DNA of 50,696 nucleotides. Origin: Gemmatimonadaceae bacterium. GTDB lineage: Bacteria; Gemmatimonadota; Gemmatimonadetes; Gemmatimonadales; Gemmatimonadaceae. Shown piece after piece: positions 1,016-38,590 of the stretch. The notes under the pieces were generated by a model that was not told the DNA's origin, made no database searches, and worked only from the letters and a program-made list of their open reading frames with translations. The translations under genes were made by a program, and so were the position numbers. Location of the stretch: positions 1-50,696 of the forward strand of contig DATFBS010000064.1 in NCBI GenBank assembly GCA_035253695.1, given 5' to 3'. How positions within the stretch are numbered: position 1 is the first letter of the stretch; each line of letters opens with the position of its first letter.

Positions 1016-1172
1016 CCTTTTAAGAGGCGGTAGCACAGAGACACACCGAGACATTGCACAGAGACACATTGAGGAAGATCAACTGCGAAAGCTTTCCTGA
1101 AGCACTGCAGTGGAGTCCTCGGTGTGTCTGTGTGGAAAGTCTCGGCGTGTCTCTGTGCTACCGCTTTTCAGG
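1016..1172. repeat. long imperfect palindrome (~57-bp arms) built from CACAGAGACA/CCGAGAC units; the loop contains two mini-palindromes (GAAAGCTTTC, CACTGCAGTG)
   Basis: Left arm 1016-1075 is the reverse complement of right arm 1106-1172 with a few mismatches or indels. It lies between convergent genes. The right arm overlaps the last 4 codons of the regulator gene. Confidence 0.6.
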
Positions 1173-4217: not shown

Positions 4218-4499
4218 ATGCGACGCTACATGATCGAGCGGGACCTGACGGGCGCCGGCCAGCTCACCGCGGATGAGCTCCGTGGCATCTCGACGAAGTC
4301 ATGTGAGGTGCTCCGTGACCTCGGCCCGGAGGTCCAGTGGGTGCAGAGCTACGTCACCGACGACAAGATCTACTGCGTGTACCTCGCGTCGAACGAGCGG
4401 CTGATCCGCGAGCACGCCAAGCGCGGGGGATTCCCCTGTAGCCGGGTGAGTGAAGTACGGGCAGGGATCGATCCGACGACGGCGGAGCTGAGGCAATAG
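4218..4499 (+). CDS. DUF4242-like small protein
   Basis: 93 aa. Pattern MRRYMIERDL...AGQLT..EL.....KSCEVLRDLGP.VQWVQSYVTDDKIYCVYLA...IREHAKRGGFP matches the DUF4242 family I recall. SD-like CAGGAG upstream. 13 nt after the previous gene. Confidence 0.55.
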   Translation: MRRYMIERDLTGAGQLTADELRGISTKSCEVLRDLGPEVQWVQSYVTDDKIYCVYLASNERLIREHAKRGGFPCSRVSEVRAGIDPTTAELRQ

Positions 4500-4500
4500 G

Positions 4501-4617
4501 TCCCAAGGGTCCTCAGGGTCCTCAGGGTCCTCAGGGTGCGTAGTGCTCAGGGGGTTCACACTCTGAGGACCCTGAGGACCCTGAGGACCCTGAGGACCCT
4601 GAGGACCCTTGGGACTA
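4501..4617. repeat. palindromic element made of tandem 9-mers: (GGGTCCTCA)x3, loop, (TGAGGACCC)x5
   Basis: Direct reading of 4501-4617. Arms are reverse complements with unequal repeat numbers. The loop sequence GGGTGCGTAGTGCTCAGGGGGTTCACACTCTGAGG is conserved in the second copy at 17947-18058. It sits between convergent genes. Confidence 0.75.
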
Positions 4618-5946: not shown

Positions 5947-6876
5947 CTAGGGCGTAATGTCTATCGCGAGATGAAGCTGTAGGTATCGCTCGATGACTCG
6001 AGCGAGAGAAGAAGCGAATCTCGCTCTGTTCTCTTCCGTATCCCGAACTCCAACTCGGTTCGACTCGATCTGCACCGCGCAGATCTGACCCCCTCCCCGA
6101 CACCCATGCACCGCGGTGTTATAGCCGCCGGCGAAGTACTCGGCGTCGCCGGGGTCGGGCGTCGAGTCGCTGGGAACGGCGGGGAAGCCCTCCGCCTCGA
6201 GCAGCGCGCCAAGGCTCGAAGGGCCGCGCAGCAGCTCGGAGAACGACAGTGGGGAGAGCACCGATATCGTTCGGATGCTGCTCGAGCTCTCGAACGCGGG
6301 GCGGCTGTCCAGAGAGTCGTTCGGCTTGCGAAGATCTCCCGCGTCCAGGAGATAGCCGAGCTCCAACCGCTGGATCGCGTGGCCATGGCCGTGCAGGTCG
6401 AGGTAGAGGCCGCCCGTGAGATCCCTGCTGATCGCGTTCTTGGCTTCGGCGATGAACTGGTGGAATTCCTGCCACGCGAGCTGGGCCTCCGCGTCCCCCT
6501 GTGCGCCCTCGACGATCTCGCGGTTCGCGTCGAGCTTCACGCGATGCAGGTGCACGATGACGACATGCGCATGCTTTCCCGTCAGCCTGACGAGAGCGGA
6601 ATCGGCCGCGCGAGCCAGCTCGCCCGTGTTCAGGTCGGTGACGGTCGTCCCGTACGTGCGATCGGGAATCTCCGCCGGTCGAAGCGATCCGCCGTGGGGC
6701 GCAGTGAGGATGACCGGAAGCTCTCCGGCGATGTACTCGATGTAGTTGTTGCGTCCGAAGTAGGAGGTGCCCGGCGTATAGCGCGCCGTGTCCACCGGGT
6801 CCACGCGCGGCGACGCCGGAGAGGCGCACGCCGACAGCAGGACGAGGAGTCCGAGCGACGAGCGAGCGTTCAGAAC
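5947..6876 (-). CDS. N-formylglutamate amidohydrolase (FGase)-fold zinc hydrolase, secreted or lipoprotein
   Basis: Motifs [19 protein letters not shown] and HGHGH are typical of the FGase/succinylglutamate desuccinylase-like fold. Lipoprotein-like N-terminus [10 protein letters not shown]. The exact start is uncertain: no ATG/GTG/TTG sits immediately before the signal peptide. The ORF-track extension to 7422 overlaps the E1 gene and is spurious. Confidence 0.5.
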
Positions 6877-8981
6877 GCCGCGATCTCCTGCACGACGCGC
6901 TTGAAATCGTCGATCTGCGGGAGGATCGCGTCTTCGAGCGACGGCGCGTAGCCGACGAACGTATCGGTCGACGCAATGCGCATCACCGGCGCGTCGAGCC
7001 AGGCGAAGCATTCCTGCGCGATCGCGGCGGCGATCTCGGCGCCGTATCCCCACGACAGCGAGTCCTCGTAGGCGACGATCACGCGATTCGTCTTCTTCGT
7101 CGATGCGAACACCGCCTCTCGATCCCACGGCGAAAGCGTGCGCAGATCGATCACCTCGACATCTGGACCGCCAGCCTCGGCGATCTGGTTCGCGGCGACG
7201 AGCGCGCGCTGCACCGTTGCACCGTAGGTGACGATGGTGATGTCCTTCCCGTCGCGGACCACCTTCGCCTTGCCGAACGGAATCATGAAGTTCGGCCCGG
7301 GGTACCGCGATTTGTTGTATGTCTGCCGATAGAGATGCTTGTGCTCGAGGAAGATCACCGGATCGTCGCAGCGAATCGCCGTGCGCAGCAATCCGTTGGC
7401 ATCGAGCGCGGTCGCGGGACACACGACGCGAAGCCCGGGCGTGTGCGTGAACAGCGACGCGCCGGTCTGCGAGTGGTAGACGGCACCGCGGATGTAGCCA
7501 CCGTAGGTCGTGCGCACGACGACCGGCGCGGAGAACGCGTTATTCGACCGCCAGCGCATCGTGGCCAGCTCGTCGCGGAGCTGCATGTATGCCGGCCAGA
7601 TATAATCGAAGAACTGAATCTCGACGACCGGCTTCAATCCGCGGATCGCCAGACCAACGGCGCGACCGACAATGTTCGCCTCGGCGAGCGGTGAGTTGTA
7701 GACACGGGTGCCGCCGAACTCCTTTTGCAGTCCCCACGTCACCTTGAAGACGCCACCCTTGCCTTTCACCTTGCCCATGTACTGCTCGCGTGACAGGTCG
7801 GCGACATCCTCACCGAACACCACGATCTTCTCATCGCGCCGCATCTCATCCTTCATGCACGCGTTGAGCAGATCGACCATCGTCGTCGGCTCGCCGGCGA
7901 ACTGTGGATCGTCCTCCGTGTCGAACGCATCGCTAGTGGGATCGACGTCGGGCGAATAAACGGCGAAGTACACCGTGTCAGCGGCGGGCTGCGGCTGGGC
8001 GAGGGCGTCGTCGGTCGCGGCAAGGATCTCGGCGTCCACCTCCTGACGAAGTCGATCGAGCTCATCCTCCGTCGCCATTCCCTCCGCCACCAGCCAGCGC
8101 GGGAAGGTGATGAGCGGATCGCGCTGCGCCTCCGCCTCGCGCTCCTCGGGAGGCTTGTAGAAGACCTCGTCGTCGGACTGTGAATGCGAGTACGGACGAA
8201 TGACGCGAGCGTGCACGAACGCCGGGCCCTTCCCTTTGCGCGTGTGATCGACGGCTTTCTTCATCACCTCGTATGAGGCGACCAGATCGCACCCGTCGAC
8301 TTCCAGGATCAACAGATTCGGGAAGCCGCTCACGAGCTTCGAGATCGAGCCACCCGCTGTATTCACCTCGACCGGGACGGAAATCGCGTAGCCGTTGTCC
8401 TCCACGAGGTAGACGATGGGCAGCGACAGATTGCAGGCGGTGTTGAGGGATTCCCAGAACTCGCCTTCGCTGGTCGTGCCATCGCCGGTGGTGACGAGAA
8501 CGATCTCATCTTTCTGGAAACCTTCGGTGAGGCCAAGCGCCTTCGCGCGAACGATTGCCTCAGCGGACCCGACTGCCTGGAGGAACTGCGTTCCGGTCGG
8601 CGACGAGGTGGAGACGATGTTCAGCTCTTTTTTTCCCCAGTGGCTGGGCATCTGCCGCCCGCCGGAGTTGGGATCGATCGCCGCGCCAACCGCCGAGTAG
8701 AGCATCTCCGCGGGCGTCATGCCGAGCTGCAGGCACAGCGCGCGGTCGCGGTAGTACATGTAGAACCAGTCATGCGCCGACCGCGTAACCATGCCAGCGG
8801 CGGTCAGGATCGCCTCATGTCCCGCGCCGGAGATCTGGAAGAAGATCTTATTCTGCTTCTTGAGCTGGATCTCTTTGTCATCGAGCCGGCGCGAGAGGTA
8901 CATCGTGCGATAGGCGGCGACGAGCTGATCGCGCCCGAGCTCCGATGTCCCTTTCCGCTCCGCTTTCGTTTGAGTCGCCAT
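6870..8981 (-). CDS. 2-oxoacid (pyruvate/branched-chain) dehydrogenase E1 component, fused alpha and beta subunits, TPP-dependent
   Basis: N-terminal E1-alpha TPP-binding region ([17 protein letters not shown]...GAGHEA...[15 protein letters not shown]) and C-terminal E1-beta transketolase-like region ([11 protein letters not shown]...[14 protein letters not shown]...). The start is set at [10 protein letters not shown] (ATG ~8981). The 39 upstream codons in the ORF track are translation of the repeat element. Confidence 0.8.
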
Positions 8982-8997
8982 AGAACTTGAAGATAGT

Positions 8998-9095
8998 CGT
9001 CGAACGAGGAACGAGGAACGAGGAACGAGGAACGAGGAAGCCGTCGCGAGCTCCGCGCCGCGTTTCCTCGTCCCTCGTTCCTCGTTCCTCATTGG
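8998..9095. repeat. palindromic element: (GAACGAG)x5, 22-nt loop, (CCTCGTT)-type units x4
   Basis: Direct reading. It lies in the divergent region between the E1 and HIT gene starts. The unit GAGGAAYGAGG is shared with the elements at 20053-20133 and 38488-38590. Confidence 0.65.
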
Positions 9096-9134
9096 CACCT
9101 TCCGTGCTTCTTCGAGTGGTACCAGGAGGGTCTC

Positions 9135-9617: not shown

Positions 9618-9845
9618 CCTTTTTCGGGATGGCACCGTCGAAAATATGAAAGGCGGACGCGCCGCGCCCTTGCGCCCCGACGTTCCGCTCCGCATTCGTA
9701 AGGCGCGCGGTGCTCCACCGTACCCGCGCCGATCAACGACTGGAGGCACATGAGCGTCGATCGACGACCCTCTTCCGACCGAACAGACCGTCGGCCCACC
9801 GTCGTCGTCCTACGCTGGTGCACTCTATCCACCATGCCACATCGC

Positions 9846-9892
9846 CCCGCCCGGGTTCCCCATCCGGCGCGGGGCGACGTGCTTTTCGGCGA
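9846..9892 (+). terminator. GC-rich hairpin (TCGCCCCGCCCGG..CCGGCGCGGGGCGA) followed by CTTTTC; terminator or attenuator-like
   Basis: Inverted repeat read directly. A short T-run follows. It ends ~10 nt before the SD (GAGGTG) of the HNH gene and ~230 nt after the HIT gene. Confidence 0.3.
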
Positions 9893-9898
9893 GGTGCA

Positions 9899-10303
9899 AT
9901 GTCTCGGCACGGCATTCATCGCATCTGCCTTCCCCGCGCCCCGCGTGGCCTTCTCCGGCGGCGCCGTTCCTCCCACCTCCGTCACGTCGATTTCAAGCGA
10001 GCGCTCAAGCGCGCCGTAATGCGCGACTGCGGCCGGCGCTGCGTGTACTGCGGTGCCGGGCTCGAGCATGATCATGCGACCATCGATCACGTGCACCCGC
10101 GCGCGCGGGGAGGCATCACCGCGTACGGGAACCTCGTCGCCGCCTGCGCACCCTGCAATCGACTGAAGGGTGACATGCTGCCGCACGATTTCTTCGTCCG
10201 ATATCCGCTGGCGGGGATGAACTTTCTGTTGTACGCGCGGGTGGTGCATCGCGCCTTGAAGCGCGGCGCGCGACGCGCGGTGAGTCTGGCCCTGGCGGCG
10301 TGA
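9899..10303 (+). CDS. HNH endonuclease domain protein
   Basis: CVYCG...HDHATIDHVHP...GG...NLV.ACAPCNRLKGD matches the HNH C-x2-C/H-N-H/C-x2-C pattern. The start is chosen at the ATG with a GAGGTG SD (9899). The ORF-track start at 9710 is probably an extension and 10019 is an alternative. Confidence 0.55.
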   Translation: MSRHGIHRICLPRAPRGLLRRRRSSHLRHVDFKRALKRAVMRDCGRRCVYCGAGLEHDHATIDHVHPRARGGITAYGNLVAACAPCNRLKGDMLPHDFFVRYPLAGMNFLLYARVVHRALKRGARRAVSLALAA

Positions 10304-10313
10304 AGTAGGAACT

Positions 10314-10434
10314 AGTGGTCAGGGGTCAGGGATCAGGGGGTGTCAGGGAGGAGGTTGAAGGAGAGAACGGCGCGCTGAAGTTCTCTCCTATGACCTATTC
10401 CCTGACACCCCCTGATCCCTGACCCCTGACCACT
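10314..10434. repeat. 37-bp near-perfect inverted repeat of (GGTCAGG/GATCAGGG) units with a nested inner hairpin (GGAGAGAAC...GTTCTCTCC)
   Basis: 10314-10350 is the reverse complement of 10398-10434 with one mismatch. The inner 9-bp stem is at 10361-10389. It lies between convergent HNH and nadE genes. Confidence 0.75.
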
Positions 10435-10446
10435 AACTCCTGGCTC

Positions 10447-16024: not shown

Positions 16025-16041
16025 GATCGTTTAGCTAAACT

Positions 16042-16154
16042 TCCGAAGACGTCGGACATCAGACGTCAGAGTTCAGATGTCAGAAACCGAAACCGCACTA
16101 GGCAACGAGGTGTCTGACGTCTGACCACTGACGTCTGATGTCTGAGGTCTTCGG
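16042..16154. repeat. imperfect palindrome built from GACGTCAGA-type units (~42-bp arms)
   Basis: 16042-16083 is approximately the reverse complement of 16111-16154. It sits directly after the PBP gene and overlaps the ORF-track start of the next gene. Confidence 0.6.
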
Positions 16155-16181
16155 ATGTGTCTCTTCTCGCAAACCATCGCA

Positions 16182-16947: not shown

Positions 16948-18084
16948 CTACCTCGGGTCGTCCCCGGGCTTCCTCCCGACGAAATGGAACCCGACGAGTC
17001 GATGATGCTCGTATCCCGCGAGGATCGCTCGCTTCTTGTCGCGCGGGTCGAACCGTTGAACGCCAAGTACCTGCGACACGATCGGGATGGACGCGAGGGC
17101 CTCCTGAAAGACGGTCGTGACTTCCAGGTCGATGAGTCCCTTCACCTTCGGGCTTCGTGACAGGCGGAGCACTGATCGCCGAATCTGAAACGTGTTGGGG
17201 TCGAGAAAGATCGATCCGTTCACGTCGGGATTCTCGATCTTGGCCCACGCGTAGAGGTCGATGCGAAGGAGGTCCGTTCCATCGACATGATCGAGTCCGC
17301 CATCGACGAAGCAGTGGTTGTCGAGAAAGAGCGGATCGGCGAAGTCGAGCAGCGTTGGAATATTGAAGAACACCTCTCCACGTTGACGGCGAGTGGGACG
17401 CGTCAGGATCCGCCCGGGCCGATACCGCCAGGGCGGCTTACTTGCGACTACCACCGTGTCGATATCGTCGATGCGGGTTTCGCCGTCCCGCAGCTCGCTG
17501 CTGACGATCAACTCCTGCGAGTAGACAAACGGATATCGCTCCGACAGGAGACGGTATTGCTCTCCGTTCATCTGCAGCTGCGTGAGGAGCGTCAGGAGCG
17601 AAGAGTCCGTCACCGCGCGGAGTCCGGGTGTCGTACACGAGGGATTCGCGCGAACCTGCACGGGAGCGAGCTTCAGAGCCACGCGCGTGAGCTCGATCCG
17701 TAGGGAATCCTGTGCTCCCGCCCGCACGGTGAGCATCAGATCCTTTGGCGCATAGCCGAGCCGGCGGATGTGAAGCGCGAACGATCCCGGCGGGAGCGCG
17801 CGCAGCACGAACGTGCCGCTGTCGTTGGCGAAGCGGTGGATCTCCAGCGACGGCACCGCGATCACGCTATGCGCGAGCGGCTCTCCACTCTCGCGCGCGA
17901 CGACGATGCCGACGACGCTGCCTTGCGCCGAGAGAGATGCTGGAAGAAGGGTGCTCAGGGTCCTCAGGGTCCTCAGGGTCCTCAGGGTGCGAGGTGCTCG
18001 GGGTTTTCGCACCCTGAGGACCCTGAGGACCCTGAGGACCCTGAGGACCCTGAGCACCCTGAGCACCTCTGCTCTACTTGGCAT
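16948..18084 (-). CDS. CarboxypepD_reg-like domain protein; N-terminal region encoded by a repeat element (possibly disrupted signal peptide)
   Basis: Mature-like region ASLSAQGSVVGIVVARESGEP...RRLGYAP is paralogous to the N-terminal domains of genes 4615-5760 and 42760-45843. The ORF from ATG 18084 reads through the 9-mer palindrome as MPSRAE(VLR)5...(TLR)4. That ATG overlaps the stop of the upstream cupin gene by 11 nt. True start and secretion status are uncertain. Confidence 0.5.
   Translation of the reverse strand: MPSRAEVLRVLRVLRVLRVLRVLRVRKPRAPRTLRTLRTLRTLSTLLPASLSAQGSVVGIVVARESGEPLAHSVIAVPSLEIHRFANDSGTFVLRALPPGSFALHIRRLGYAPKDLMLTVRAGAQDSLRIELTRVALKLAPVQVRANPSCTTPGLRAVTDSSLLTLLTQLQMNGEQYRLLSERYPFVYSQELIVSSELRDGETRIDDIDTVVVASKPPWRYRPGRILTRPTRRQRGEVFFNIPTLLDFADPLFLDNHCFVDGGLDHVDGTDLLRIDLYAWAKIENPDVNGSIFLDPNTFQIRRSVLRLSRSPKVKGLIDLEVTTVFQEALASIPIVSQVLGVQRFDPRDKKRAILAGYEHHRLVGFHFVGRKPGDDPR
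17947..18058. repeat. palindromic element of tandem GGGTCCTCA / TGAGGACCC units (~45-bp stem), second copy of the family at 4501-4617
   Basis: Near-perfect palindrome centred at ~18003. The loop GGGTGCGAGGTGCTCGGGGTTTTCGCACCC is homologous to the loop of the 4501 element. Confidence 0.75.
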
Positions 18085-19312: not shown

Positions 19313-20092
19313 TCAGGGCACCGAGTCGAGCACGCGCCGCTTACCTAACGGGTCGATGTCGAACGCGACGGCCTGGCGCCGTCGCGCTTCGGCGCCCCGT
19401 ACCGTCGCCAGGGCCGTGTAGTAATCCAGATACGCGAACGACGAGACCCCGCCACGCACGAACTCGTAGCTCGAAACGAGCTCGCGCCACTTGGCCATGT
19501 GGTCGCTGACGTCGATGTACAGGTACGGCTGAAACCGCTCGGTGTCTTCCCAGTTCTCGGCGTACCAGAGACGGGTCCCGCGATGCGCGGGCTCTCCCTT
19601 CGAGCCCACCTCGATCGCGGCGAGCAGCACCGCGTCGACGACGATGGCGTGCGCGGCCGCATGGTCGCGGTGAATGCTCTCCCGCCAATGTGTGATGACG
19701 AGGGTCGGCTTGGTCTGACGAATGACATCGGCCACGTAGCGCCGAGCCTCGTCGGTGTCTGGAACCTCCCCATCGCGATAGGGGGCGAAGATGACGTCCC
19801 CGCCTAACACACGCGCTGCCGCTTCCGCTTCTTTCCGCTTTTGTGCCCCGTACGCCGTCGGCGGAAGCTTGGGATTCCCGCGCTCTCCCAGGCTCAGGTG
19901 CAGAATGACGACGCGATCGCCGAGCTGACGCTGCTTGAGAAGCACGGCACCGGCGGTGAGCTCCATGTCCCCCGCGTGCGCGCCGACGGCCAGGATCGTC
20001 CGGGGTGCTTGCTGACCCTGGGTCGGAACCGCGACCAGGGCGAGAACGACGAAAGGAACGAGGAATGAGGAAGCTGAGATCGTCTTCCTCAT
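19313..20092 (-). CDS. PIG-L/LmbE family deacetylase, secreted
   Basis: LmbE-like N-terminal motif (ILAVGAHAGDMELTAGA) and a conserved HxxH region. The signal peptide MRKTISASSFLVPFVVLALV is encoded by the arms of the repeat element at 20053-20133. Confidence 0.7.
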   Translation of the reverse strand: MRKTISASSFLVPFVVLALVAVPTQGQQAPRTILAVGAHAGDMELTAGAVLLKQRQLGDRVVILHLSLGERGNPKLPPTAYGAQKRKEAEAAARVLGGDVIFAPYRDGEVPDTDEARRYVADVIRQTKPTLVITHWRESIHRDHAAAHAIVVDAVLLAAIEVGSKGEPAHRGTRLWYAENWEDTERFQPYLYIDVSDHMAKWRELVSSYEFVRGGVSSFAYLDYYTALATVRGAEARRRQAVAFDIDPLGKRRVLDSVP

Positions 20093-20133
20093 TCCTCGTG
20101 CCTCGTTTTCCTCATTCCTCGTTCCTCGTTCGC
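20053..20133. repeat. palindrome AGGAACGAGGAATGAGGAAG / CTTCCTCATTCCTCGTGCCT plus a tandem extension of the right arm (GAGGAAYGAGG family)
   Basis: 20053-20072 is the reverse complement of 20083-20102 with one mismatch. A further direct repeat runs to ~20133. The deacetylase start codon (~20090) lies inside the right arm. Confidence 0.65.
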
Positions 20134-26654: not shown

Positions 26655-28982
26655 GTGCGGGCCGGACTCATGACAATGAGCGCGGAACCGAAGCTTCGGA
26701 CCGATCTGATCGTCAGCCGGATGGAGACGCCGGAAGGTCCGCGGTTTGTGCTCAAGGATCCACGCACTCGGCGGTACTTTCGGCTTCGGGAGCTCGAGTA
26801 CGCAATCGCCCGCCGGCTGGATGGACGGTCGCCGACCGCCGAGCTGGCGCCGGCCCTCTCCGCCGAGCTGGATGTCGATCTCGATGCCAGCGCACTCGAT
26901 GCGTTCGTGGCCCAGCTCCGTCGGCAGGGGTTGATCGACGACCCCTCGGCGCCGACACCACCACGCGAAGGCTTCGTCCGCGGCACGCCCCTCTATCTCC
27001 GCTTCCGCGCGTTCGACCCCGACCGACTGCTCGACTGGCTGATCGTTCGGGTGCGGTTCTTCTTCACCCCGTACTTCGTCCTCGGCTCGGCGGTGCTTCT
27101 GGGCTGGGCGATCATCACAGTCGTCACGCATCGTGCCGACATCATGCAGGACCTCACCCGCCTGTGGAACTTCCAGAGTCTGTTCCTCGCCTGGGTCGTG
27201 GTCCTCTGTGTCGTGACGTTGCACGAGTTCGCGCACGGGCTCACCTGCAAGAACTTCGGCGGCAGGGTGCACGAGATGGGCTTCATGCTCATCTACTTTC
27301 AGCCAGCCTTCTACTGCAACATCAGCGATGCGTGGCTGTTTCCGCAGAAGTCCCGGCGACTCTGGGTGACGGCGGCGGGCGCATACTTCGAGCTGTTCGT
27401 ATGGTCGGTCGCCACGCTGATCTGGACGGTCGTCGAGCCGGGGACGTGGATCAGCGGCGTGGCCCTCATCGTGATGGCGACTTCGGCCATCAAGCAGTTC
27501 TTCAATCTGAATCCGCTGATCAAGCTGGACGGCTACTATTTCCTGAGCGATCTCCTCGAGGTGCCGAACCTGAGACAGCGGGCATTTTCATATCTGAGTG
27601 GCAGACTGAGACGCCTCGTCGGAGCGATTGAGCCCTCTGGATTGCTGGACGCCTCCGGACGGGAGCGCGCGATATTCGTCGCCTACGGCGCGATGGCGTT
27701 CACGTTCTCGTACTGGTTCCTCGCGAAGATCGTGCTTGGTATCGGTGGGTATCTGACCTCTCGGTATCAGGGTCCGGGCTTCGTGGCGTTCACGATGTTC
27801 CTCGGCCTGGTATTTCCACAGCCCGTGCGTCGCCTTATCGGACGCCGCACGAGTTCGCGTCCCACGCCACCCCCGTCGACGGCGGTCTCTCCGCAGACGG
27901 ACACAACCGCGTCCGCGGCCCCGGCGCCTTCTGCGTCGGGAGTAAAGCTCGGTAGTCGAAAGCGGAGGGCGGTGTCGCTCACGCTCGCCGCCGTGGTGGT
28001 CGCGCTCCTTTTCGTGGCGCGCATTCCGTTACGCGTCGGCGGGGCGTTCGAGCTTCTTCCCGCGCGGAACGCCGACGTTCCCTCCACGATCGGCGGCGTC
28101 ATCGAACGGGTGTATGTCGAGGAAGGAAGCGTAGTGGAAGCCGGCGACACCATCGCGCGTCTCTCCGGGCGAGACCACCGCGCTCGTTTGAGAGCGGTGG
28201 AGGCCGATGTCGCCGAACGCGAAGCACAACTTCGGCTGCTCAAGGCTGGGGCACGTCCGGAAGAGCTCGCTCTCGCGCGACTCGCGGTGGCGAGGGCGGA
28301 GGAACCGCTCCGGGTTGCGCAGGCGGAAGTGGAACGGGTGCGCACACTCGCGGCGACGCAGGTCGTGACGCGCGCGGAGCTCGAGCGGGCCGAAGAGCAA
28401 GTGGCGGTGCTCACCAACGAGCTGGAGCAGGCGCGCGGGCGGCTCGCGATGCTGACCGCGGGAAGCCGTCCTGAAGAGATCGCCGCGACGGCACAGGCGG
28501 TCGCGCGGGCGGTGGCCGAGCGAAATCGACTGGAGGCCGAGATCGCGCGCCTGGTGGTGGTCGCACCCCATGGCGGTGTGGTCATGACTCCGCGTCTCTG
28601 GGAGAAAGTCGGGGGCTACGTCGAGCCTGGCGACCTGGTCGCGGAAATCCACTCCCTCGATCGCCTAACGGCGCAGATCGACGTCTCCGAGCGGGACATT
28701 GGAGAGGTCCAGCTCGGGCAACCCGTCGCACTGCGACTTCGTGCGTACCCCAACCGAACATTTCAGGGGACGGTCACGCGCATCGCCGGCGCTGCCGCCG
28801 ACAGCGGCTGGCTCACGGAGCGAACGGTTCGGGTCGAGGTGGACCTCCCGAATGCCGGCCACCTGCTCCGGCCGATGATGACGGGCTATGCCCGTATCCA
28901 CGTCGGGGACCGGCGAGCCGTCGACGTCTTGACGCGCCGCGTTAGGCGTTACGTTCGCGTCGAATTCTGGTCGTGGTGGTGA
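26655..28982 (+). CDS. tripartite fusion: PqqD-like RRE domain + M50/site-2-protease-family metalloprotease + HlyD-type periplasmic adaptor
   Basis: N-terminus (YFRLRELEYAIARRLDGRSPTAELAPAL...ALDAFVAQLRRQGLI) fits the PqqD/RRE pattern. The TM region contains HEFAHGL (HExxH) and FNLNPLIKLDGYYF (NxxPxxxLDG), diagnostic for S2P/M50. The C-terminal half has a biotin-lipoyl-like hairpin (VYVEEGSVVEAGDTIARL), a long coiled coil and a HlyD β-barrel region. GTG start at 26655; alternative ATGs at 26670 and 26676. Confidence 0.8.
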   Translation: MRAGLMTMSAEPKLRTDLIVSRMETPEGPRFVLKDPRTRRYFRLRELEYAIARRLDGRSPTAELAPALSAELDVDLDASALDAFVAQLRRQGLIDDPSAPTPPREGFVRGTPLYLRFRAFDPDRLLDWLIVRVRFFFTPYFVLGSAVLLGWAIITVVTHRADIMQDLTRLWNFQSLFLAWVVVLCVVTLHEFAHGLTCKNFGGRVHEMGFMLIYFQPAFYCNISDAWLFPQKSRRLWVTAAGAYFELFVWSVATLIWTVVEPGTWISGVALIVMATSAIKQFFNLNPLIKLDGYYFLSDLLEVPNLRQRAFSYLSGRLRRLVGAIEPSGLLDASGRERAIFVAYGAMAFTFSYWFLAKIVLGIGGYLTSRYQGPGFVAFTMFLGLVFPQPVRRLIGRRTSSRPTPPPSTAVSPQTDTTASAAPAPSASGVKLGSRKRRAVSLTLAAVVVALLFVARIPLRVGGAFELLPARNADVPSTIGGVIERVYVEEGSVVEAGDTIARLSGRDHRARLRAVEADVAEREAQLRLLKAGARPEELALARLAVARAEEPLRVAQAEVERVRTLAATQVVTRAELERAEEQVAVLTNELEQARGRLAMLTAGSRPEEIAATAQAVARAVAERNRLEAEIARLVVVAPHGGVVMTPRLWEKVGGYVEPGDLVAEIHSLDRLTAQIDVSERDIGEVQLGQPVALRLRAYPNRTFQGTVTRIAGAAADSGWLTERTVRVEVDLPNAGHLLRPMMTGYARIHVGDRRAVDVLTRRVRRYVRVEFWSWW

Positions 28983-29025: not shown

Positions 29026-31224
29026 TCAGTAGCGATAGTAGTCGACCGCCATCCTCAGGCCACCACCGGGCTCGCGACGCCAGATCACGAGAAACTCGAC
29101 CACCGACGTGCGGTCGCCGTTCGGCCCAGTCGTCACGAGTGTCGAGCGGCCGATCTGATAGGGATTGTCCGGATGTCCGCCGACATCGATTACGTCGAGC
29201 TTCCAGGACTTGGCGTTGCGGATGCCGGTCCAGTACTTGTCGATTGCCGCACGGCCCTGCACGAGCTCGCCCCGTTCCCCGTCGATGCGCGCGTCATCGG
29301 TGTAGAAGCGAGCGACCGCAAGCATGTCCCCCGAGTTGAACGCCGCGACCATGGAGTCGTTGACGGCCTGAATCTCCGCGCGCAGAGCCGGGTTCTGCAC
29401 CGGCGCACGTACCACAGGTGGCGTCGCCTTCGTCGGGTGTTCGCCACGCTCCGCGTGCGAAAACTCCCAGAGGACGTTCACGATCTTCCATTCCCCGTTG
29501 ACACGCGCCAGGTGCATGAGGTCGATCCAGTCCGTCATCCGGGCGCGAGCACTTGCCGCGTTGCCGAAGATCTCGAGGATCTCGACCTCGCGCCTCCGCA
29601 ACGAGTCCGGCGTCTCCCGGCCCCAGCCACGGCGCGTACCCTGCACCAAGGTCATCGCCGTCTGGTTCTCCATTCGATTCGCGCCGCGCTCCGGATCGGG
29701 ACGCCAGATCCGCTTGGCCAAATCCGGATGAACCGCGCGCTCCATCCGTGCCGCGTCGCCGGTGTACCAGCCGTCCACATAGTCGAGGACGGCGGCCCTG
29801 ATGCGTACACTATCGATCGACGATCCCATCATCGGGACACGCTCCATCACCTGCCACGAGCCGACCGTGAGGTGCGTGATTCGCCCGAGGGAATCCTCGT
29901 GAAACCCGAAGCGCCGCGATCCATCGTCGCTGCGGAAGAAGCGGGGGCTGACCTCGATGAATCGGCCATTGAACGCCGAAAGCGAGCCGTCCTGATTGGC
30001 GACGACGTCGGCCTCTCCCATCTGTCGTGGATTGGCGCACGTGTGACAGACGATGTTCGCGCGATAGTGACCAGCGTACCGAGCGGCCGACCGGGCCGCA
30101 GCCTCGCGCGACGCGTGCATCGGCACCGGTCGCTTCGCGGCCTCGGGTGCGGGGGCGAGGCGATCGAGCACCGCGCGCGTGACGGTAAAGCGCAAGTTGC
30201 TTCCCTCACGGTGGCTCGCGACGAAGACACCGAGGTTCCGCGCTGGAAGCAGGGTCATGAGCGATGAGAAACCGGCGACGTCGCCGCCATGCTGGACGCC
30301 CCGATCATCGTTGGCTCGCTGGATTTGCTGCCACCCGAGCCCGTAGCCGGGGATCAACGGGTGCATCGTGACATGCTGGCGCTGCATCTCGCGAGTCATC
30401 CGCTCACTCATGATCGCGCTGCGTCCGGCGAGCTGGGCGATCATGAAGCGCGCCATGTCTCGCGCCGTGCTGTTCATCGACGACGCCGGCGTCGTGTGAT
30501 ACCACTCCCAGGGCGCCCTTGCGGCGGTGTCCCCCTGGACGTCGTACGGCGTCGCCGCCTGAGATCGCACGGCCTCCGGGACGGTCACCCAGGTGCGCGT
30601 CATGCCGAGCGGGCGCCAGATGCTGTCGACGAGATACTTCTCGAAGGGGAGTCCCGACACATCCTCGACGATGACGCCGGCAAGCGCGACCCCGTACGTC
30701 GAGTACGCCGTCGCCCAGCCTGGTGCCGCATACTGGATGAGCCTCGGACGCAGGTAATCCCGCAGCGGCTGCAGGCTCGCTTCGCCGTCGGCGAGAGGGC
30801 CGGGACGGATCTCGTCCAGCGCCGCCGTGTGGGTCAAGAGGTGCCTAACGGTGGTCGGCGTCCGATATCGCGTCCGGATCCGCAGGTCGCGCAAGTATCG
30901 ATGGACGTTGGAATCCAGGTGGACGCGGCCGCGATCGATCAGCTGCGCCACCGCCACGGCGGTCATGATTTTGCTGATCGACCCGATCCGGACGATCGTC
31001 GAATCGGTCATGGAGCGCCGGCTCTCGAGGTCGGCGAAGCCGTATCCCTTCGAGAAGATCACGCGCCCTCCACTCACTACCGTCACCACCGCCCCCGGAA
31101 TCCGCTCGGCGGCCATCGCCGCCGGTACGACCGAGTCGAGCATCGATCCCAACCCGGATGCGCTCTGCGCCGACGCGATCCGCGTCAGGCCGCAGACGAG
31201 AAGAGCCACGATGAGTTTTGTCAT
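29026..31224 (-). CDS. serine hydrolase (beta-lactamase/PBP-like, class C fold) fused to two C-terminal NTF2/SnoaL-like domains
   Basis: S-x-x-K motif (SISK) and YxN-like region. Signal peptide. The C-terminal ~250 aa contain two NTF2-like modules, the first closely related to the protein at 33576-34043. Confidence 0.7.
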   Translation of the reverse strand: MTKLIVALLVCGLTRIASAQSASGLGSMLDSVVPAAMAAERIPGAVVTVVSGGRVIFSKGYGFADLESRRSMTDSTIVRIGSISKIMTAVAVAQLIDRGRVHLDSNVHRYLRDLRIRTRYRTPTTVRHLLTHTAALDEIRPGPLADGEASLQPLRDYLRPRLIQYAAPGWATAYSTYGVALAGVIVEDVSGLPFEKYLVDSIWRPLGMTRTWVTVPEAVRSQAATPYDVQGDTAARAPWEWYHTTPASSMNSTARDMARFMIAQLAGRSAIMSERMTREMQRQHVTMHPLIPGYGLGWQQIQRANDDRGVQHGGDVAGFSSLMTLLPARNLGVFVASHREGSNLRFTVTRAVLDRLAPAPEAAKRPVPMHASREAAARSAARYAGHYRANIVCHTCANPRQMGEADVVANQDGSLSAFNGRFIEVSPRFFRSDDGSRRFGFHEDSLGRITHLTVGSWQVMERVPMMGSSIDSVRIRAAVLDYVDGWYTGDAARMERAVHPDLAKRIWRPDPERGANRMENQTAMTLVQGTRRGWGRETPDSLRRREVEILEIFGNAASARARMTDWIDLMHLARVNGEWKIVNVLWEFSHAERGEHPTKATPPVVRAPVQNPALRAEIQAVNDSMVAAFNSGDMLAVARFYTDDARIDGERGELVQGRAAIDKYWTGIRNAKSWKLDVIDVGGHPDNPYQIGRSTLVTTGPNGDRTSVVEFLVIWRREPGGGLRMAVDYYRY

Positions 31225-31329
31225 GTCGCCGAAGGTTTGGGGACGCTCGGCTCCGCGACAGAGGCAATGTGACGAACTGGCCGCGCCATGGAGTGGGTTG
31301 TCACTAGCCAGATGCCATCAAGACCTACA

Positions 31330-31546
31330 GGCTGGCATCAAGAACAAGAAGCGGTTTGACACGGATGACACGGATTGAACTGAAGGTGCCTAATCGTTCA
31401 TGCGCGGCGTAACTCTCCTCTCGCAACCAGAAAAAAAAGACATTTCTTGTTGTTGTAGAGGAGGGATCCCTGCGCCCCGCGTCGATCCGGCCGCTTCGGT
31501 TCAATCCGTGTCATCCGTGTTCAACTGCTCTCCGTTCTTGATGCCC
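31330..31546. repeat. ~217-bp highly structured element, copy A (terminal ~48-bp inverted repeats with GACACGGAT tandem units, inner hairpins); candidate MITE or structured ncRNA
   Basis: Near-identical to 35545-35738 apart from a central A-rich insertion. The termini GGCTGGCATCAAGAA...TTCTTGATGCCC are reverse complements. It lies between same-strand genes. Confidence 0.6.
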
Positions 31547-31578
31547 GCCTGTCGCCTCACAAGCCCCGGCAGAGAAGA

Positions 31579-32295
31579 TCACCTCGGCTTGAGGAGGGCG
31601 CGAAGCTTGGCGCTGTGCGTCCGGCTCGACGTGATGCGAGATCCATCCTTCATCGTGAGGACGTATTGTCCGTGGACGTGCGGCTCCAGGGTCGTAACGC
31701 AGTCCACGTTGACGATCGCCGAGCGATGCACGCGCACGAATTTGCTCGGATCGAGGCGTGCCTCGACGGACTTGAGCGTCTCGCGGACGAGATGCCGCCG
31801 GCCGCCGCTGTGCAGACGAGCGTAATTCCCCTCGCCGGCGATCCACTCCACGTCGGCGGCGCGGACAAGGGTCATTCGGGACGCCGACCGTACGACGAAT
31901 CGCGCTTCGGGGCGCGGACGTTCGCTCACCCGCGCGCGCGCGCGTGCCAGCGCCGCCCGAAACCGGGCACGGTCGAAGGGCTTGAGAAGGTAGTCGACCG
32001 CGCTGACGTCGAATGCGCGCAGCGCGTACTCATCGTACGCGGTGACCACGACGATGAACGGACGCTGCTCGGGGGCCAGATGGGACTCGAGCAGCTGCAC
32101 GAGACCAAATCCATCCATCCCGGGCATTTGCACGTCGAGAAAGAGCACCTGGGGGGCCGACTCGAGGATTCCCGTCAATGCCTCTTCGCCAGTGCGGTAT
32201 TCCCCGACGAGCGTGACGTCCATTTCGTCAGCCAGCAGCGCACGAATGCGTTCGCGTCCCAGCGGCTCGTCGTCGACCAGGGCGACGCGTACCAT
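31579..32295 (-). CDS. LytTR-family response regulator (REC + LytTR DNA-binding domain)
   Basis: REC domain with phospho-acceptor Asp (LFLDVQMPGMDG). C-terminal LytTR domain (RFVVRSASRMTLVRAADVEWIAGEGNYARLH...FVRVHRSAIVN). Confidence 0.85.
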   Translation of the reverse strand: MVRVALVDDEPLGRERIRALLADEMDVTLVGEYRTGEEALTGILESAPQVLFLDVQMPGMDGFGLVQLLESHLAPEQRPFIVVVTAYDEYALRAFDVSAVDYLLKPFDRARFRAALARARARVSERPRPEARFVVRSASRMTLVRAADVEWIAGEGNYARLHSGGRRHLVRETLKSVEARLDPSKFVRVHRSAIVNVDCVTTLEPHVHGQYVLTMKDGSRITSSRTHSAKLRALLKPR

Positions 32296-34990: not shown

Positions 34991-35494
34991 TCACGCGCGG
35001 ACCAGAGGGCTCACACCAAGCGCGCAGACATACAGCCCGAGCCCGAATACGGTATGTGTCACGAGGCTCTTCAGCCGGGCCTGCATGGGTTTGGGCGTTC
35101 GTGATGCCGCGATGCCGAGGCCGAGGGATGGCTGTAAGAGAAAGAACGGGAACACGAGCGTGGCAACGCCGTACAGCAGAGCGGGGAGCAGCGTTGGCTG
35201 AGCGAGCCAGTCACCTGCTGTCAGAGCCACGAACCCCAACGCCAACGCGATCCCGATGGCATAGTGGCCAATCCATCCGACCACGCACTCCCGGGGCTTC
35301 CGTGGAGCGGTCGCAATGCTCGCGTGCCGAAGAATGCCCTCCGGCATGTGCCGAAGCCAACGCCCGAGCAGGCAGTAGTCGAGCGATGGAATGCTGAACG
35401 CCCGCCTCAGGAAGAGATTCCATAAGTCCATGAGCAGGGTTGCGCCGATGCCAATTCCCACCGCCCCAAGGACGTCGTTTGCGTCAATGCTCAT
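34991..35494 (-). CDS. DUF2938-like integral membrane protein
   Basis: The likely start is MSIDANDVLGAVGIG (ATG ~35494). The 50-codon ORF-track extension to 35644 is translation of element copy B. Four TM segments. Confidence 0.5.
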   Translation of the reverse strand: MSIDANDVLGAVGIGIGATLLMDLWNLFLRRAFSIPSLDYCLLGRWLRHMPEGILRHASIATAPRKPRECVVGWIGHYAIGIALALGFVALTAGDWLAQPTLLPALLYGVATLVFPFFLLQPSLGLGIAASRTPKPMQARLKSLVTHTVFGLGLYVCALGVSPLVRA

Positions 35495-35544
35495 TATCCG
35501 CGGCGAGGCCAGCGAGCGGTAAGAGTATTTCGCGACAGGCGTGA

Positions 35545-35738
35545 GGCTGGCATCAAGAAGGAGAGCAGTTTGACACGGATGACACGGATTGAACGGAAGG
35601 TGCCTGATCGCTCCTGGCCAGCGTAACTCTCCTCGCGCAATCACAAAGAGAGGAGGGATTTCAGCGCACCGAGTCGATCCCGACGCTACCGTTCAATCCG
35701 TGTCATCCGTGTCAAACTGCTCTCCTTCTTAGATGCCC
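35545..35738. repeat. ~194-bp structured element, copy B (paralog of 31330-31546)
   Basis: The outer ~48-bp arms GGCATCAAGAAGGAGAGCAGTTTGACACGGATGACACGGATTGAACGG and their near-perfect reverse complement were read directly. The inner CTCTCCTC...GAGGAGGG hairpin is present as in copy A. Confidence 0.65.
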
Positions 35739-35742
35739 AGTC

Positions 35743-36117
35743 TTATTCCGGAACCGGAAAGAACAGCTCATTGCCGTCGGGATCGTCGATCTGGAGCGTG
35801 TCGTACCCCCACCAGGTCTCCTTGGTGGGAACAGAGCGCTCGACGAGCTCACGACGAAGATCGGTGAGCCCCTCGGCGGTCAGCTCGATGAACAGACGCG
35901 CTTTGTCTCGACGCGTAGCATCCTGGCAGAGGATGATCTCGCACTCTCCATGATTGACCTGACAGACCGTCCCTGCGCCGTCGCCTTCATGCCAACCCTT
36001 CTCGAAGCCGAGCATGTCGACGTAGAAACGAATTGCGCGGTTCACGTCGGCAACGAAGAACACCGGGCGCGTGTACCACCGATGAACGGTCTGGCTTTCC
36101 ATGGGTTGCTCCGTCAT
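35743..36117 (-). CDS. VOC/glyoxalase-bleomycin resistance family protein
   Basis: Single βαβββ VOC module pattern (FFVADVNRAIRFYVDMLGF...DPDGNELFF). Confidence 0.7.
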   Translation of the reverse strand: MTEQPMESQTVHRWYTRPVFFVADVNRAIRFYVDMLGFEKGWHEGDGAGTVCQVNHGECEIILCQDATRRDKARLFIELTAEGLTDLRRELVERSVPTKETWWGYDTLQIDDPDGNELFFPVPE

Positions 36118-38487: not shown

Positions 38488-38590
38488 GTCCTGCGAGGGA
38501 GGAATGAGGACCGAGGAGTGAGGAATTCGATCGGGCGAGACCGAGGTCATCAGACTTCCTCACTCCTCACTTCTCATTCCTCCATACCTC
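38488..38590. repeat. palindrome of GAGGAATGAGG/GAGGAGTGAGG units (~28-bp arms), third member of the GAGGAAYGAGG family
   Basis: 38488-38515 is approximately the reverse complement of 38563-38590. It sits between the 3' end of gene 38599-39483 and the nfeD start. Confidence 0.6.

What the first reader, a model, noticed from the sequence alone, without database searches (positions are those of the whole stretch)
31330..31546. ~200-bp highly structured element present in two copies 4 kb apart (candidate MITE or structured ncRNA)
The sequences at 31330-31546 and 35545-35738 align almost base-for-base. Both have ~48-bp terminal inverted repeats containing tandem GACACGGAT units (GGCATCAAGAA-GGAGAGCAGTTTGACACGGATGACACGGATTGAACGG ... 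reverse complement). Both share an inner module with a CTCTCCTC...GAGGAGGG hairpin and a GGTGC...GCACC pair. Copy A carries an extra A8-containing insertion in the centre and a partial duplication of the terminal repeat at its left edge (31306-31329). Both copies sit between two co-directional minus-strand genes: 3' of the lytTR operon and 5' of the serine hydrolase, and 3' of the VOC gene and 5' of the DUF2938 gene. They therefore occupy terminator/5'-UTR positions. Base-paired positions in the inner module differ between copies in ways that are at least partly compensatory (e.g. CTCTCCTCTCGC vs CTCTCCTCGCGC), which hints at a selected RNA structure rather than only a transposed DNA repeat.
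Basis: seen in the sequence. Interest (0 to 1): 0.7.

Follow-up and report, generated by a model that had tools for sequence, protein, structure and literature searches.

The report
Palindromic mobile-type repeat after stop codons
The two ~200-bp copies are gene-less members of a very widespread family of palindromic DNA repeats that sit just after genes; in other bacteria the same repeat arms flank a small nuclease gene of unknown function, so this looks like a miniature mobile element, not a structured regulatory RNA.

Summary
The two copies are real: A 31327-31552 and B 35544-35738, ~80-85% identical. Each is a near-perfect palindrome (arms 56-70 nt, about -130 to -142 kcal/mol on both strands).

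They are not a private pair. The 22-nt core ACACGGATGACACGGATTGAAC is invariant in all four arms. It occurs exactly in more than 118 loci of a one-genome-per-species collection (Bacteroidota, Geomonas and others), again as inverted arms of intergenic hairpins made of 9-10-nt CACGGAT units. Rfam has no family for it.

Across that family the arms behave like conserved terminal inverted repeats, not covarying stems. Between A and B only 2 of 68 pairs change on both sides. There is no sense-strand G.U excess.

At every related site I could examine, the same arms flank a 128-aa GxxExxY / PD-(D/E)XK gene as a 0.55-0.76 kb cassette.

The host is a Gemmatimonadaceae genome. It carries 10 long palindromes built of tandem short units in 50.7 kb, 8 of them starting within 40 nt of a stop codon. 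The orthologous spacer in five relatives holds other hairpin families, a short unrelated sequence, or nothing.

Verdict: a MITE/REP-like palindromic repeat at gene 3' ends. The structured-ncRNA reading is not supported. The enzyme that moves it is inferred, not shown.

The parts
31327..31552 (.). Copy A, whole palindromic element (226 nt)
   Evidence: Inverted repeat I1 and direct repeats D1/D2/D9. MFE -141.7 kcal/mol on the + strand and -131.8 on the - strand. Essentially identical in 3 assemblies.
31327..31396 (+). Copy A, left arm
   Evidence: I1: 70 nt, 81% complementary to 31483-31552.
31483..31552 (-). Copy A, right arm
   Evidence: I1.
31356..31380 (+). Copy A, conserved core of the left arm (TTGACACGGATGACACGGATTGAAC)
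   Evidence: 0 mismatches. nhmmer with the family arm profile gives 31.8 bits.
31499..31523 (-). Copy A, conserved core of the right arm
   Evidence: 2 mismatches. nhmmer 34.0 bits.
31413..31465 (.). Copy A, small central hairpin CTCTCCTC...GAGGAGGG, including the 22-nt A8 insertion at 31435-31456
35544..35738 (.). Copy B, whole palindromic element (195 nt)
   Evidence: I2, D1, D2, D9. MFE -132.8 kcal/mol (+) and -129.8 (-).
35555..35610 (+). Copy B, left arm
   Evidence: I2: 56 nt, 89% complementary.
35675..35730 (-). Copy B, right arm
   Evidence: I2.
35570..35594 (+). Copy B, conserved core of the left arm
   Evidence: 0 mismatches.
35691..35715 (-). Copy B, conserved core of the right arm
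   Evidence: 0 mismatches.
35627..35657 (.). Copy B, small central hairpin CTCTCCTC...GAGGAGGG

Best explanation
A and B are two diverged, ORF-less copies of a dispersed palindromic DNA repeat. It is MITE-like, with REP/REPIN and cyanobacterial STRR hairpins as the nearest analogues.

Each arm carries a 23-25-nt core (GACACGGAT GACACGGAT TGAAC). That core is the signature of a family of inverted-repeat arms found in many bacterial phyla. In this high-GC Gemmatimonadaceae genome the element has gained an extra outer stem and a GC-rich inner arm.

Shown:
- The two copies share ancestry over their whole length, including the non-palindromic centre, yet lie in unrelated flanks.
- The core is held constant while the rest drifts.
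- The orthologous spacer in relatives is empty or holds other hairpin families.
- Elsewhere the same arms form 53-69-nt terminal inverted repeats around a GxxExxY / PD-(D/E)XK gene.

Inferred:
- The element spreads by copying at the DNA level, through a protein that recognises the core. The candidate is a GxxExxY nuclease acting in trans. The copies in the window are non-autonomous derivatives (arm - small hairpin - arm, as would be left by deletion of the gene).
- Because the element lands or survives just 3' of stop codons, it is transcribed with the upstream gene. There it forms a ~90-bp hairpin that would block 3' exonucleases, impede read-through, or be cut by RNase III. That would separate the upstream transcript from the downstream gene. 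I treat this as a side effect or secondary use, not the reason for its sequence.
For: Family:
These include the isolates Spirosoma spitsbergense, Geomonas sp. Red32, Flavobacterium sp. A45 and Segetibacter.
- The matches sit in the same hairpin architecture.
- An arm profile finds 241 arms in 123 sources, including the four window arms.

Common descent with constraint on the core:
- 45 of 46 core positions are identical between A and B, against 115 of 149 in the other stem parts (Fisher p = 7e-4).

Turnover at one site. The spacer between the response regulator and the hydrolase in six Gemmatimonadaceae genomes holds:
- this element (window);
- a GACGCGGAG-unit hairpin (L123, L146);
- a GAGGTGATC-unit hairpin (L147);
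- a short unrelated sequence (L124);
- nothing (L125).

Arms behave as TIRs, not as covarying stems:
- Own-arm vs other-arm similarity of the inner 30 nt is 0.487 vs 0.468.
- Only 2 of 68 pairs changed on both sides.
- Sense-strand G.U 66 vs antisense 82.

Cassette:
- GxxExxY (TIGR04256 / PF13366) genes lie within 76 nt of an arm in 6 of 7 cases.
- One subfamily is flanked by mutually complementary arms at every site I could examine, each with different neighbours (L058, L126, L136, L148, L151). The cassettes, including L039 and L054, measure 554-756 bp.

Position:
- A starts 26 nt and B 4 nt after the upstream stop codon.
- 8 of 10 long palindromes in the window start within 40 nt of a stop codon.
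- Across the family, arms occupy 28% of tandem, 33% of convergent and 15% of divergent spacers (p = 0.037).
Against: - No target-site duplication at A, B or the cassettes.
- No GxxExxY gene in the window or in 75 kb of related genomes, so no partner enzyme is shown for this lineage.
- The extended 200-bp form has only these two copies in everything searched.
- The CACGGAT arms are absent from the five related Gemmatimonadaceae contigs.
- No exact protein copy of a cassette was seen at two different sites, so recent movement is not demonstrated.
- The gene could equally have invaded pre-existing hairpins.
- Gene calls used for the family statistics are crude (longest-ORF rule).
- Some MAG taxonomy is unreliable: L066 and L068 share flanks but are binned to different phyla.
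Confidence: 0.6

Rival explanations
1. Gene-end hairpin kept for its function and generated in place. The genome uses long hairpins built of tandem short units as terminators or 3'-end protectors. They would grow by replication slippage (as proposed for cyanobacterial STRR hairpins), and A and B would be two such hairpins. This partly overlaps with the best explanation, since function could be secondary there.
For: - The window has 10 palindromes made of tandem 7-, 9- or ~10-nt units, 8 of them within 40 nt of a stop codon.
- The same spacer in relatives carries hairpins of the same design but with different units.
- In tandem gene pairs the window's hairpins lie nearer the upstream stop than the next start.
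- STRR hairpins between genes are documented, and their function is described as unknown (PMC2670836).
Against: - A and B share ~80% identity through non-repetitive inner and outer parts, so one was copied from the other or both from a third copy. They were not grown independently in place.
- Their core is identical to that of copies in other phyla.
- There is no U-tract.
- There is no sense-strand G.U preference, and A and B fold better on the antisense strand.
- Across the wider family the bias toward the stop codon is not significant (42 vs 31, p = 0.24).
Confidence: 0.2
2. Array of binding sites for a host DNA-binding protein. The 9-10-nt periodic CACGGAT units on both arms would be iteron-like sites, or a cruciform, recognised by a conserved chromosomal protein. 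The conserved core would reflect that protein and not a mobile-element enzyme.
For: - The core is conserved much more strongly than the rest of the element and is conserved across phyla.
- Units are spaced at roughly one DNA turn.
- The arms are conserved as sequence, not as structure.
Against: - No universally conserved protein is known to me with this site (from memory).
- The family is patchy: it is absent from 75 kb of close relatives of the host.
- Variants change all their units in concert (CGCGGAT, CACTGAT, CACGAAT), which fits element lineages better than one fixed host site.
- The arms are tightly linked to GxxExxY genes.
Confidence: 0.1
3. Structured non-coding RNA or cis-regulatory RNA. 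This is the reader's second option: the element would be selected as a folded transcript.
For: - Very stable predicted fold (z about -12 to -16).
- The inner hairpin is shared by both copies.
- 2 of 68 pairs changed on both sides.
Against: - No Rfam hit at gathering threshold or at relaxed E-value.
- The stability comes from palindromy and is present on both strands.
- No promoter or terminator.
- No strand signature in the family.
- Family centres and loops are not conserved.
Confidence: 0.05
4. Simple local segmental duplication, with no wider meaning.
For: There are only two copies of the 200-bp form, 4.2 kb apart and in the same orientation.
Against: - The homology ends exactly at the palindrome ends, and the flanks are unrelated.
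- No flanking direct repeats.
- The core is shared with more than 118 other species.
- The orthologous site in L125 is empty.
Confidence: 0.03

Closest known systems
[quoted passage not shown] Correia/NEMIS, ERIC, RUP)
   Same: Short (195-226 bp), no ORF, long terminal inverted repeats, intergenic, and more than one diverged copy. In other genomes a longer form carries the same inverted repeats around a single gene.
   Different: - No target-site duplication.
- The most conserved part lies 25-30 nt in from the ends, not at the tips.
- The arms are made of tandem 9-10-nt units.
- The candidate partner gene is a 128-aa PD-(D/E)XK protein, not a known transposase.
- The same core is shared across phyla.
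REP / BIME / REPIN elements mobilised by RAYT (Y1) transposases
   Same: Intergenic palindromic repeats with no target-site duplication. They are mostly found after genes and between convergent genes. They are said to affect mRNA stability and termination (abstract of PMC3733652).
   Different: - REPs are 20-40 bp and carry a GTAG or CGTC tag at one end (PMC3733652). Neither size nor a conserved tag applies here.
- REP sequences are species-specific (my recollection), whereas this core is identical across phyla.
- No RAYT gene was looked for or seen.
Cyanobacterial STRR (short tandemly repeated repetitive) hairpins
   Same: Intergenic hairpins whose arms are tandem short units, found between co-transcribed genes, with unknown function (transcript stability or translational coupling has been proposed; PMC2670836). 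The window's eight other palindromes, with 7-nt and other units, look very much like this.
   Different: - The units are 9-10 nt, not 7.
- A and B have a fixed, cross-phylum core plus non-repetitive outer and inner modules.
- The family is linked to GxxExxY genes.
'Multicopy nucleotide sequences' of Geobacter (Geomonas) bemidjiensis
   Same: Unexplained palindromic and tandem-repeat families that occupy 12% of intergenic regions non-randomly (PMC2996986). Geomonas sp. Red32 carries the same 22-mer in at least 6 fetched loci.
   Different: I did not find the CACGGAT or CGCGGAT sequence in the supplementary text of that paper that is held. Identity with one of its families is therefore not shown.
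23S rRNA intervening sequences that carry a small ORF in a long stem (from memory, not tested)
   Same: A long stem with a small gene of unknown function in the loop, with the stem being a natural RNase III substrate.
   Different: Those sit inside rRNA genes, and the ORF belongs to a different small-protein family. No sequence relation was tested here.

Membership tests
MITE | Short (<~600 bp) and non-coding | tested here: met
   226 and 195 bp. ORFs listed across the elements are only read-through extensions and opposite-strand ORFs typical of a 66% G+C genome; none was tested for coding.
MITE | Terminal inverted repeats | tested here: met
   Arms of 70 nt (81% complementary) and 56 nt (89%).
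MITE | Target-site duplication flanking each copy | tested here: not met
   The flanks of A (..CCTAC| |GTCGCC..) and of B (..GCGTG| |TATTCC..) share no direct repeat. The cassettes have none either.
MITE | Multiple dispersed copies in one genome | tested here: inconclusive
   Two copies in 50.7 kb. The rest of the genome is not available. There are 0 hits for the extended form in JGI metagenomes or plasmids.
MITE | An autonomous element with matching inverted repeats | tested here: inconclusive
   Cassettes with the same core in their inverted repeats exist in Bacteroidota and Geobacteraceae. None was found in the window or in related Gemmatimonadaceae contigs. The enzymatic role of GxxExxY is unproven.
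REP / REPIN | 20-40-bp imperfect palindrome with a GTAG or CGTC tag at one end | tested here: not met
   The arms are 56-70 nt. GTAG is present beside A only (minus strand, CCTGTAGG) and is absent at B.
REP / REPIN | Cognate RAYT (Y1 HUH transposase) flanked by REPs | not tested
   No RAYT profile was run. All-against-all clustering of ORFs in the 118 loci found no recurrent family except small GxxExxY proteins and ordinary housekeeping types.
Intrinsic (Rho-independent) terminator | GC-rich hairpin followed by a U-tract | tested here: not met
   0 terminator-like sites at either copy. No T run follows either arm on the gene strand.
Structured RNA family (Rfam) | Match to a curated covariance model | tested here: not met
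   0 hits at gathering score in the window and in 15 family loci. The best relaxed hit is U6atac at 11.9 bits, E = 1.2.
Structured RNA (general) | Compensatory base changes that preserve pairs | tested here: not met
   2 of 68 pairs between A and B. In the family, arms are no closer to their own partner than to others. There are 235 non-wobble and 208 wobble-type mismatches among 2459 aligned arm positions.
STRR-type tandem-unit hairpin | Arms composed of tandem short units in inverted arrangement, intergenic | tested here: met
   GACACGGAT occurs twice followed by TGAACGGA(T/A). Identity at a 9-nt shift in the arms is 0.53-0.56, against 0.10-0.38 for shifts of 7, 8, 10 and 11 nt.
STRR-type tandem-unit hairpin | Heptanucleotide unit | tested here: not met
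   The unit is 9-10 nt in A and B. Several other palindromes in the window do have 7-nt units.

The most novel reading that the evidence does not exclude
The 22-25-nt CACGGAT core would be the recognition site of GxxExxY (PF13366) PD-(D/E)XK nucleases. The 0.55-0.76-kb cassettes (about 60-nt inverted repeat, 128-aa gene, inverted repeat) together with their abundant gene-less hairpins would form an undescribed, cross-phylum class of minimal mobile element. It would move without target-site duplication, either as an IS-like unit or as a homing gene that copies itself into empty hairpins. The two window copies would be its non-autonomous form in Gemmatimonadota. This would give a function to a protein family with about 16,500 clusters at 50% identity. 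It would also explain a large share of unexplained intergenic repeats in Bacteroidota, Geobacterales and others.
Probability: 0.3. Interest if true: 0.8.

Novelty: new variant of a known kind. Interest (0 to 1): 0.55.

Why it matters
- Annotation: long perfect hairpins directly after stop codons will shape mRNA ends, operon boundaries and RNase III processing in these genomes. They also break assemblies and create spurious ORFs.
- Conservation: a repeat core held identical across phyla is unusual for REP- or MITE-type elements. It points to one conserved recognising protein.
- Testable lead: the tight pairing of these arms with GxxExxY genes offers a concrete hypothesis for a very large protein family of unknown function, and for unexplained 'multicopy nucleotide sequences' reported in Geobacter genomes.
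- Ready-made comparison: one spacer holds four different states in six related genomes. That is a natural experiment for studying the gain, loss and replacement of such hairpins.

Tried and rejected
- Rfam: whole window at gathering score, 15 family loci, and a relaxed scan of copy A. Nothing.
- Literature search for the sequence itself: 0 papers. Searches for motif fragments and REP terms gave nothing specific.
- Supplementary tables of the G. bemidjiensis paper searched for CACGGAT / CGCGGAT: 0 occurrences.
- Wider copies of the 200-bp form: two metagenome scans (outer extension; core + GAAG) gave 0, and plasmids gave 0.
- The core in IMG/VR viral contigs: 0, so there is no phage link.
- Target-site duplications: none.
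- Promoter and terminator scans: 0.
- Strand test by G.U vs A.C mismatches relative to gene direction: no sense bias.
- Own-arm vs other-arm covariation: none.
- Exact-protein look-ups, hoping to see one cassette at several sites: each protein sat at a single site across samples.
- GxxExxY protein: no homologue among solved structures by sequence, and no PADLOC or PHROG match.
- The AlphaFold model was too poor (pLDDT 59.6) to justify a fold search.
- Looking for arm-derived peptides in the tails of 150 diverse GxxExxY proteins was uninformative (5 of 150).
- Ideas considered and dropped from the sequence alone:
  - CsrA-binding sponge: the GGA motifs are all paired, and Bacteroidota lack CsrA as far as I recall.
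  - DnaA boxes: 3 of 9 positions differ.
  - CRISPR repeat, attC site and tRNA-like T-arm: no fit.
  - Collagen-like or other coding repeats: intergenic, no frame.

Full report
1. The observation

Both copies are in the sequence as described.
- Copy A spans 31327-31552 and copy B spans 35544-35738.
- They align in two blocks of 91 and 90 nt at 85% and 83% identity, plus the outer ends.
- A carries 22 extra bases with an A8 run in its centre.
- Each copy is a long imperfect palindrome. A has 70-nt arms that are 81% complementary. B has 56-nt arms that are 89% complementary.
- The 25-mer TTGACACGGATGACACGGATTGAAC occurs four times, once per arm, against 0.00 expected by chance.
- Predicted folding energies are -130 to -142 kcal/mol on either strand, 12-16 standard deviations beyond shuffled controls.
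- Pfam confirms the stated neighbours. All are on the minus strand: LytTR response regulator 31579-32295, beta-lactamase-type hydrolase 29026-31224, VOC/glyoxalase 35743-36117 and DUF2938 34991-35494.
- A starts 26 nt and B 4 nt after the upstream stop codon.
- Element A is essentially identical in three independent assemblies from different samples, so it is not an assembly artefact.

Some details fail.
- Only 2 of 68 predicted pairs differ on both sides between A and B.
- The GGTGC/GCACC pair exists in B only.

2. The element is not a private pair

The 22-mer ACACGGATGACACGGATTGAAC is invariant in all four arms.
- Carriers include isolates of Bacteroidota (Spirosoma spitsbergense, Flavobacterium sp. 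A45, Segetibacter) and of Geobacterales (Geomonas sp. Red32).
- They also include MAGs labelled Acidobacteriota, Gemmatales, Cloacimonadota, Methylobacter and others.
- Some MAG labels are doubtful. L066 and L068 share flanks but are binned to different phyla.

In these loci the 22-mer is again the outer part of an arm of an intergenic hairpin. The consensus is:
GGAACACGGAT GACACGGAT TGAACGGAT nnnCACGGAT ... loop ... and the reverse complement.

Variants keep the design but change all units together:
- CGCGGAT in Geomonas;
- CACTGAT, CACGAAT, CACAGAT and CACAGAG elsewhere.

An arm profile finds 241 arms in 123 sources.

The family has no Rfam model. It is absent from IMG/VR viral contigs. I found no paper that contains the sequence.

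The extended 200-bp form of the window (extra outer stem GGCATCAAGAAGGAGAGCAGTTT and GC-rich inner arms) was found nowhere else.

3. Host and local dynamics

Homologues of the neighbouring hydrolase that carry a source name are labelled Gemmatimonadaceae, Gemmatimonadales or Longimicrobium.

I fetched the orthologous spacer between the response regulator and the hydrolase from five relatives whose hydrolase is 83-89% identical. Aligned against the window, the same spacer holds:
- the CACGGAT element in the window;
- a hairpin of GACGCGGAG units in L123 and L146;
- a hairpin of GAGGTGATC-type units in L147;
- a short unrelated sequence in L124;
- nothing in L125.

The downstream conserved sequence resumes at the same point in all six. 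So this position, right after a stop codon, repeatedly gains, loses or swaps hairpins of one design but different sequence.

The window itself has ten long palindromes (stems of 24-56 bp) in 50.7 kb. Their arms are tandem 7-, 9- or ~10-nt units. Eight of them start within 40 nt of a stop codon. Two of them (4494-4612 and 17941-18076) share the unit GAGGACCCT, so they form a second dispersed family.

None of the five related contigs (75 kb) has CACGGAT arms. This suggests a lineage-specific arrival.

4. DNA repeat or RNA structure?

Several tests point to a DNA-level repeat.
- Between A and B, the core is 45/46 identical while the other stem parts are 115/149 identical (Fisher p = 7e-4). The core is constrained as sequence.
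- Across 41 family hairpins, the inner 30 nt of an arm are no more similar to their own partner than to arms of other hairpins (0.487 vs 0.468). Complementarity arises because both arms are copies of one consensus, not because of compensation.
- Among 63 hairpins, mismatches are 235 non-wobble and 208 wobble-type.
- In co-directional gene contexts the sense strand has 66 G.U against 82 for the antisense strand.
- A and B fold slightly better on the plus strand, antisense to their neighbours.
- No promoter-like or U-tract terminator-like site is present.

Arms are never inside ORFs in my crude gene calls. They occupy 28% of tandem, 33% of convergent and 15% of divergent spacers in the family loci (p = 0.037). 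This is a bias toward gene 3' sides, as is reported for REP elements.

5. A partner gene

Clustering all ORFs of the 118 loci gave one recurrent small family next to arms. These are GxxExxY proteins (TIGR04256, PF13366 PDDEXK_3).
- Six of seven full genes lie within 76 nt of an arm, and three sit between convergent arms.
- I then sampled this subfamily by protein, not by hairpin.
- At every independent site examined the gene is bracketed by mutually complementary arms that contain the core and a small TTCTGC-TTCG-GCAGAA hairpin. These sites are L126, L136, L148 and L151, plus L058, each with different neighbours.
- Including L039 and L054, the inverted repeats are mostly 53-69 nt (range 36-80) at 74-92% identity. 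The cassettes measure 554-756 bp and have no target-site duplication.
- L074 shows hairpin - gene - hairpin - 3' remnant of the gene - hairpin.
- Gene-less hairpins commonly have the layout arm - small hairpin - arm. That is the product expected if the gene were lost by recombination between the two small hairpins.

What is known about the protein family:
- It is very large: 16,491 clusters at 50% identity with E <= 0.001.
- A survey of the PD-(D/E)XK superfamily lists its function as unknown and notes multiple transfers between divisions (PMC3424549).
- It has no solved homologue by sequence and no PADLOC or PHROG match.
- My structure model was too weak to use.

Caveats:
- No GxxExxY gene is in the window or in the related contigs.
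- Each exact protein sat at one site only.
- How far the link extends across the whole family is unknown.

6. Most likely mechanism

- Shown: A and B descend from one sequence and lie in unrelated flanks. Their core is constrained and is shared with a cross-phylum family of inverted-repeat arms. The site is dynamic in relatives. The arms elsewhere are the inverted repeats of a one-gene cassette.
- Inferred: the element is a non-autonomous, MITE-like derivative that is copied at the DNA level by a protein recognising the core. The best candidate is a GxxExxY nuclease. Whether that protein acts as a transposase-like enzyme or as a homing nuclease that uses the arms as homology is open.
- Inferred: once the element sits behind a stop codon it is transcribed and forms a ~90-bp hairpin. 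Such a hairpin should hinder exonucleases and read-through and be a substrate for RNase III. This may be why copies persist at gene ends.

The main rival is that such hairpins are kept primarily as gene-end signals and arise in place by slippage. That fits the other palindromes of the window. It does not fit the shared non-repetitive parts of A and B, nor the cross-phylum core.

7. Comparison with known systems

It works like a MITE or REPIN. It is not a member of REP/REPIN, because size and the GTAG/CGTC tag are not met (PMC3733652). It lacks the target-site duplication typical of MITEs.

In design it is closest to cyanobacterial STRR hairpins between genes, whose function is still unknown (PMC2670836). 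It also resembles the unexplained multicopy intergenic sequences of Geobacter bemidjiensis (PMC2996986).

I rate it a new variant of a known kind. The element itself is a moderately interesting repeat. The cassette link is the part worth following.

Noticed in passing
window 1021-1170, 4494-4612, 9001-9095, 10307-10441, 16033-16164, 17941-18076, 20054-20103, 38493-38588: Eight further long palindromes whose arms are tandem short units: GAGGACCCT (9 nt, two sites), GAACGAG / GAGGAAT / GTCAGGG / GTCAGAC (7 nt), and CACAGAGACA-type (~10 nt). Most start 2-40 nt after a stop codon. They look like STRR-type gene-end hairpins, at about one per 5 kb.
   Followed up: partly
L123:9725-9806, L146:~1200-1310, L147:7046-7141, L124:~9840-9900, L125:~9692-9715: The orthologous spacer between the response regulator and the hydrolase in related Gemmatimonadaceae carries two other hairpin families (units GACGCGGAG and GAGGTGATC), a short unrelated sequence, or nothing. 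The GAGGTGATC unit equals the extended Shine-Dalgarno sequence, and its complement equals the 16S rRNA 3' end (from memory).
   Followed up: partly
L058:1918-2498; L126:2414-2967; L136:2411-3017; L148:2858-3478; L151:2921-3521; L039:1483-2101; L054:6750-7505: Cassettes of 554-756 bp: a GxxExxY (PF13366) gene flanked by inverted repeats, mostly 53-69 nt, that contain the CACGGAT core and a small TTCTGC-TTCG-GCAGAA hairpin. Each has different neighbours and none has a target-site duplication.
   Followed up: yes
L074:7080-7900: Array of hairpin - GxxExxY gene - hairpin - a 3' remnant of the same gene (..ILTNDKKRFHTDL) - hairpin. The gene's C-terminal codons run into the first CACGGAT units.
   Followed up: partly
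L116:785-812: A 28-nt small palindrome (CCTGCCTGGCTGAAGCCATTCAGACAGG) is inserted inside a CACGGAT arm, compared with the otherwise near-identical arm of L100. This looks like a nested insertion of an even smaller repeat.
   Followed up: no
window 31325-31555 and 35540-35745: Both copies fold better on the plus strand (-141.7 and -132.8 kcal/mol; 7 and 6 G.U pairs) than on the minus strand (-131.8 and -129.8; 4 and 3 G.U pairs), although both neighbouring genes are on the minus strand. The family shows the same non-significant trend (antisense 82 vs sense 66).
   Followed up: partly
L125:8973-9691 and L125:2786-3802: In the relative with the empty site, the LytTR response regulator is called as two fragments (75 aa and 69 aa), so it may be a pseudogene. 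An IS110-family transposase lies about 5 kb upstream.
   Followed up: no
L066 and L068: Contigs binned to a gammaproteobacterial MAG and to a Magasanikiibacteriota (CPR) MAG have nearly identical sequence around the hairpin. This probably reflects mis-binning, so the phylum spread taken from MAG labels should be read with care.
   Followed up: no
window 26655-28982: A single 775-aa ORF combines a daptide-type HExxH intramembrane metalloprotease region (NF041824) with an HlyD/RND-adaptor region. It may be part of a RiPP export or maturation locus.
   Followed up: no
window 6870-9098: One 742-aa ORF matches both the alpha and beta subunits of the pyruvate dehydrogenase E1 component (a fused E1). 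Its listed start runs over the palindrome at 9001-9095, so the true start is probably further downstream.
   Followed up: no
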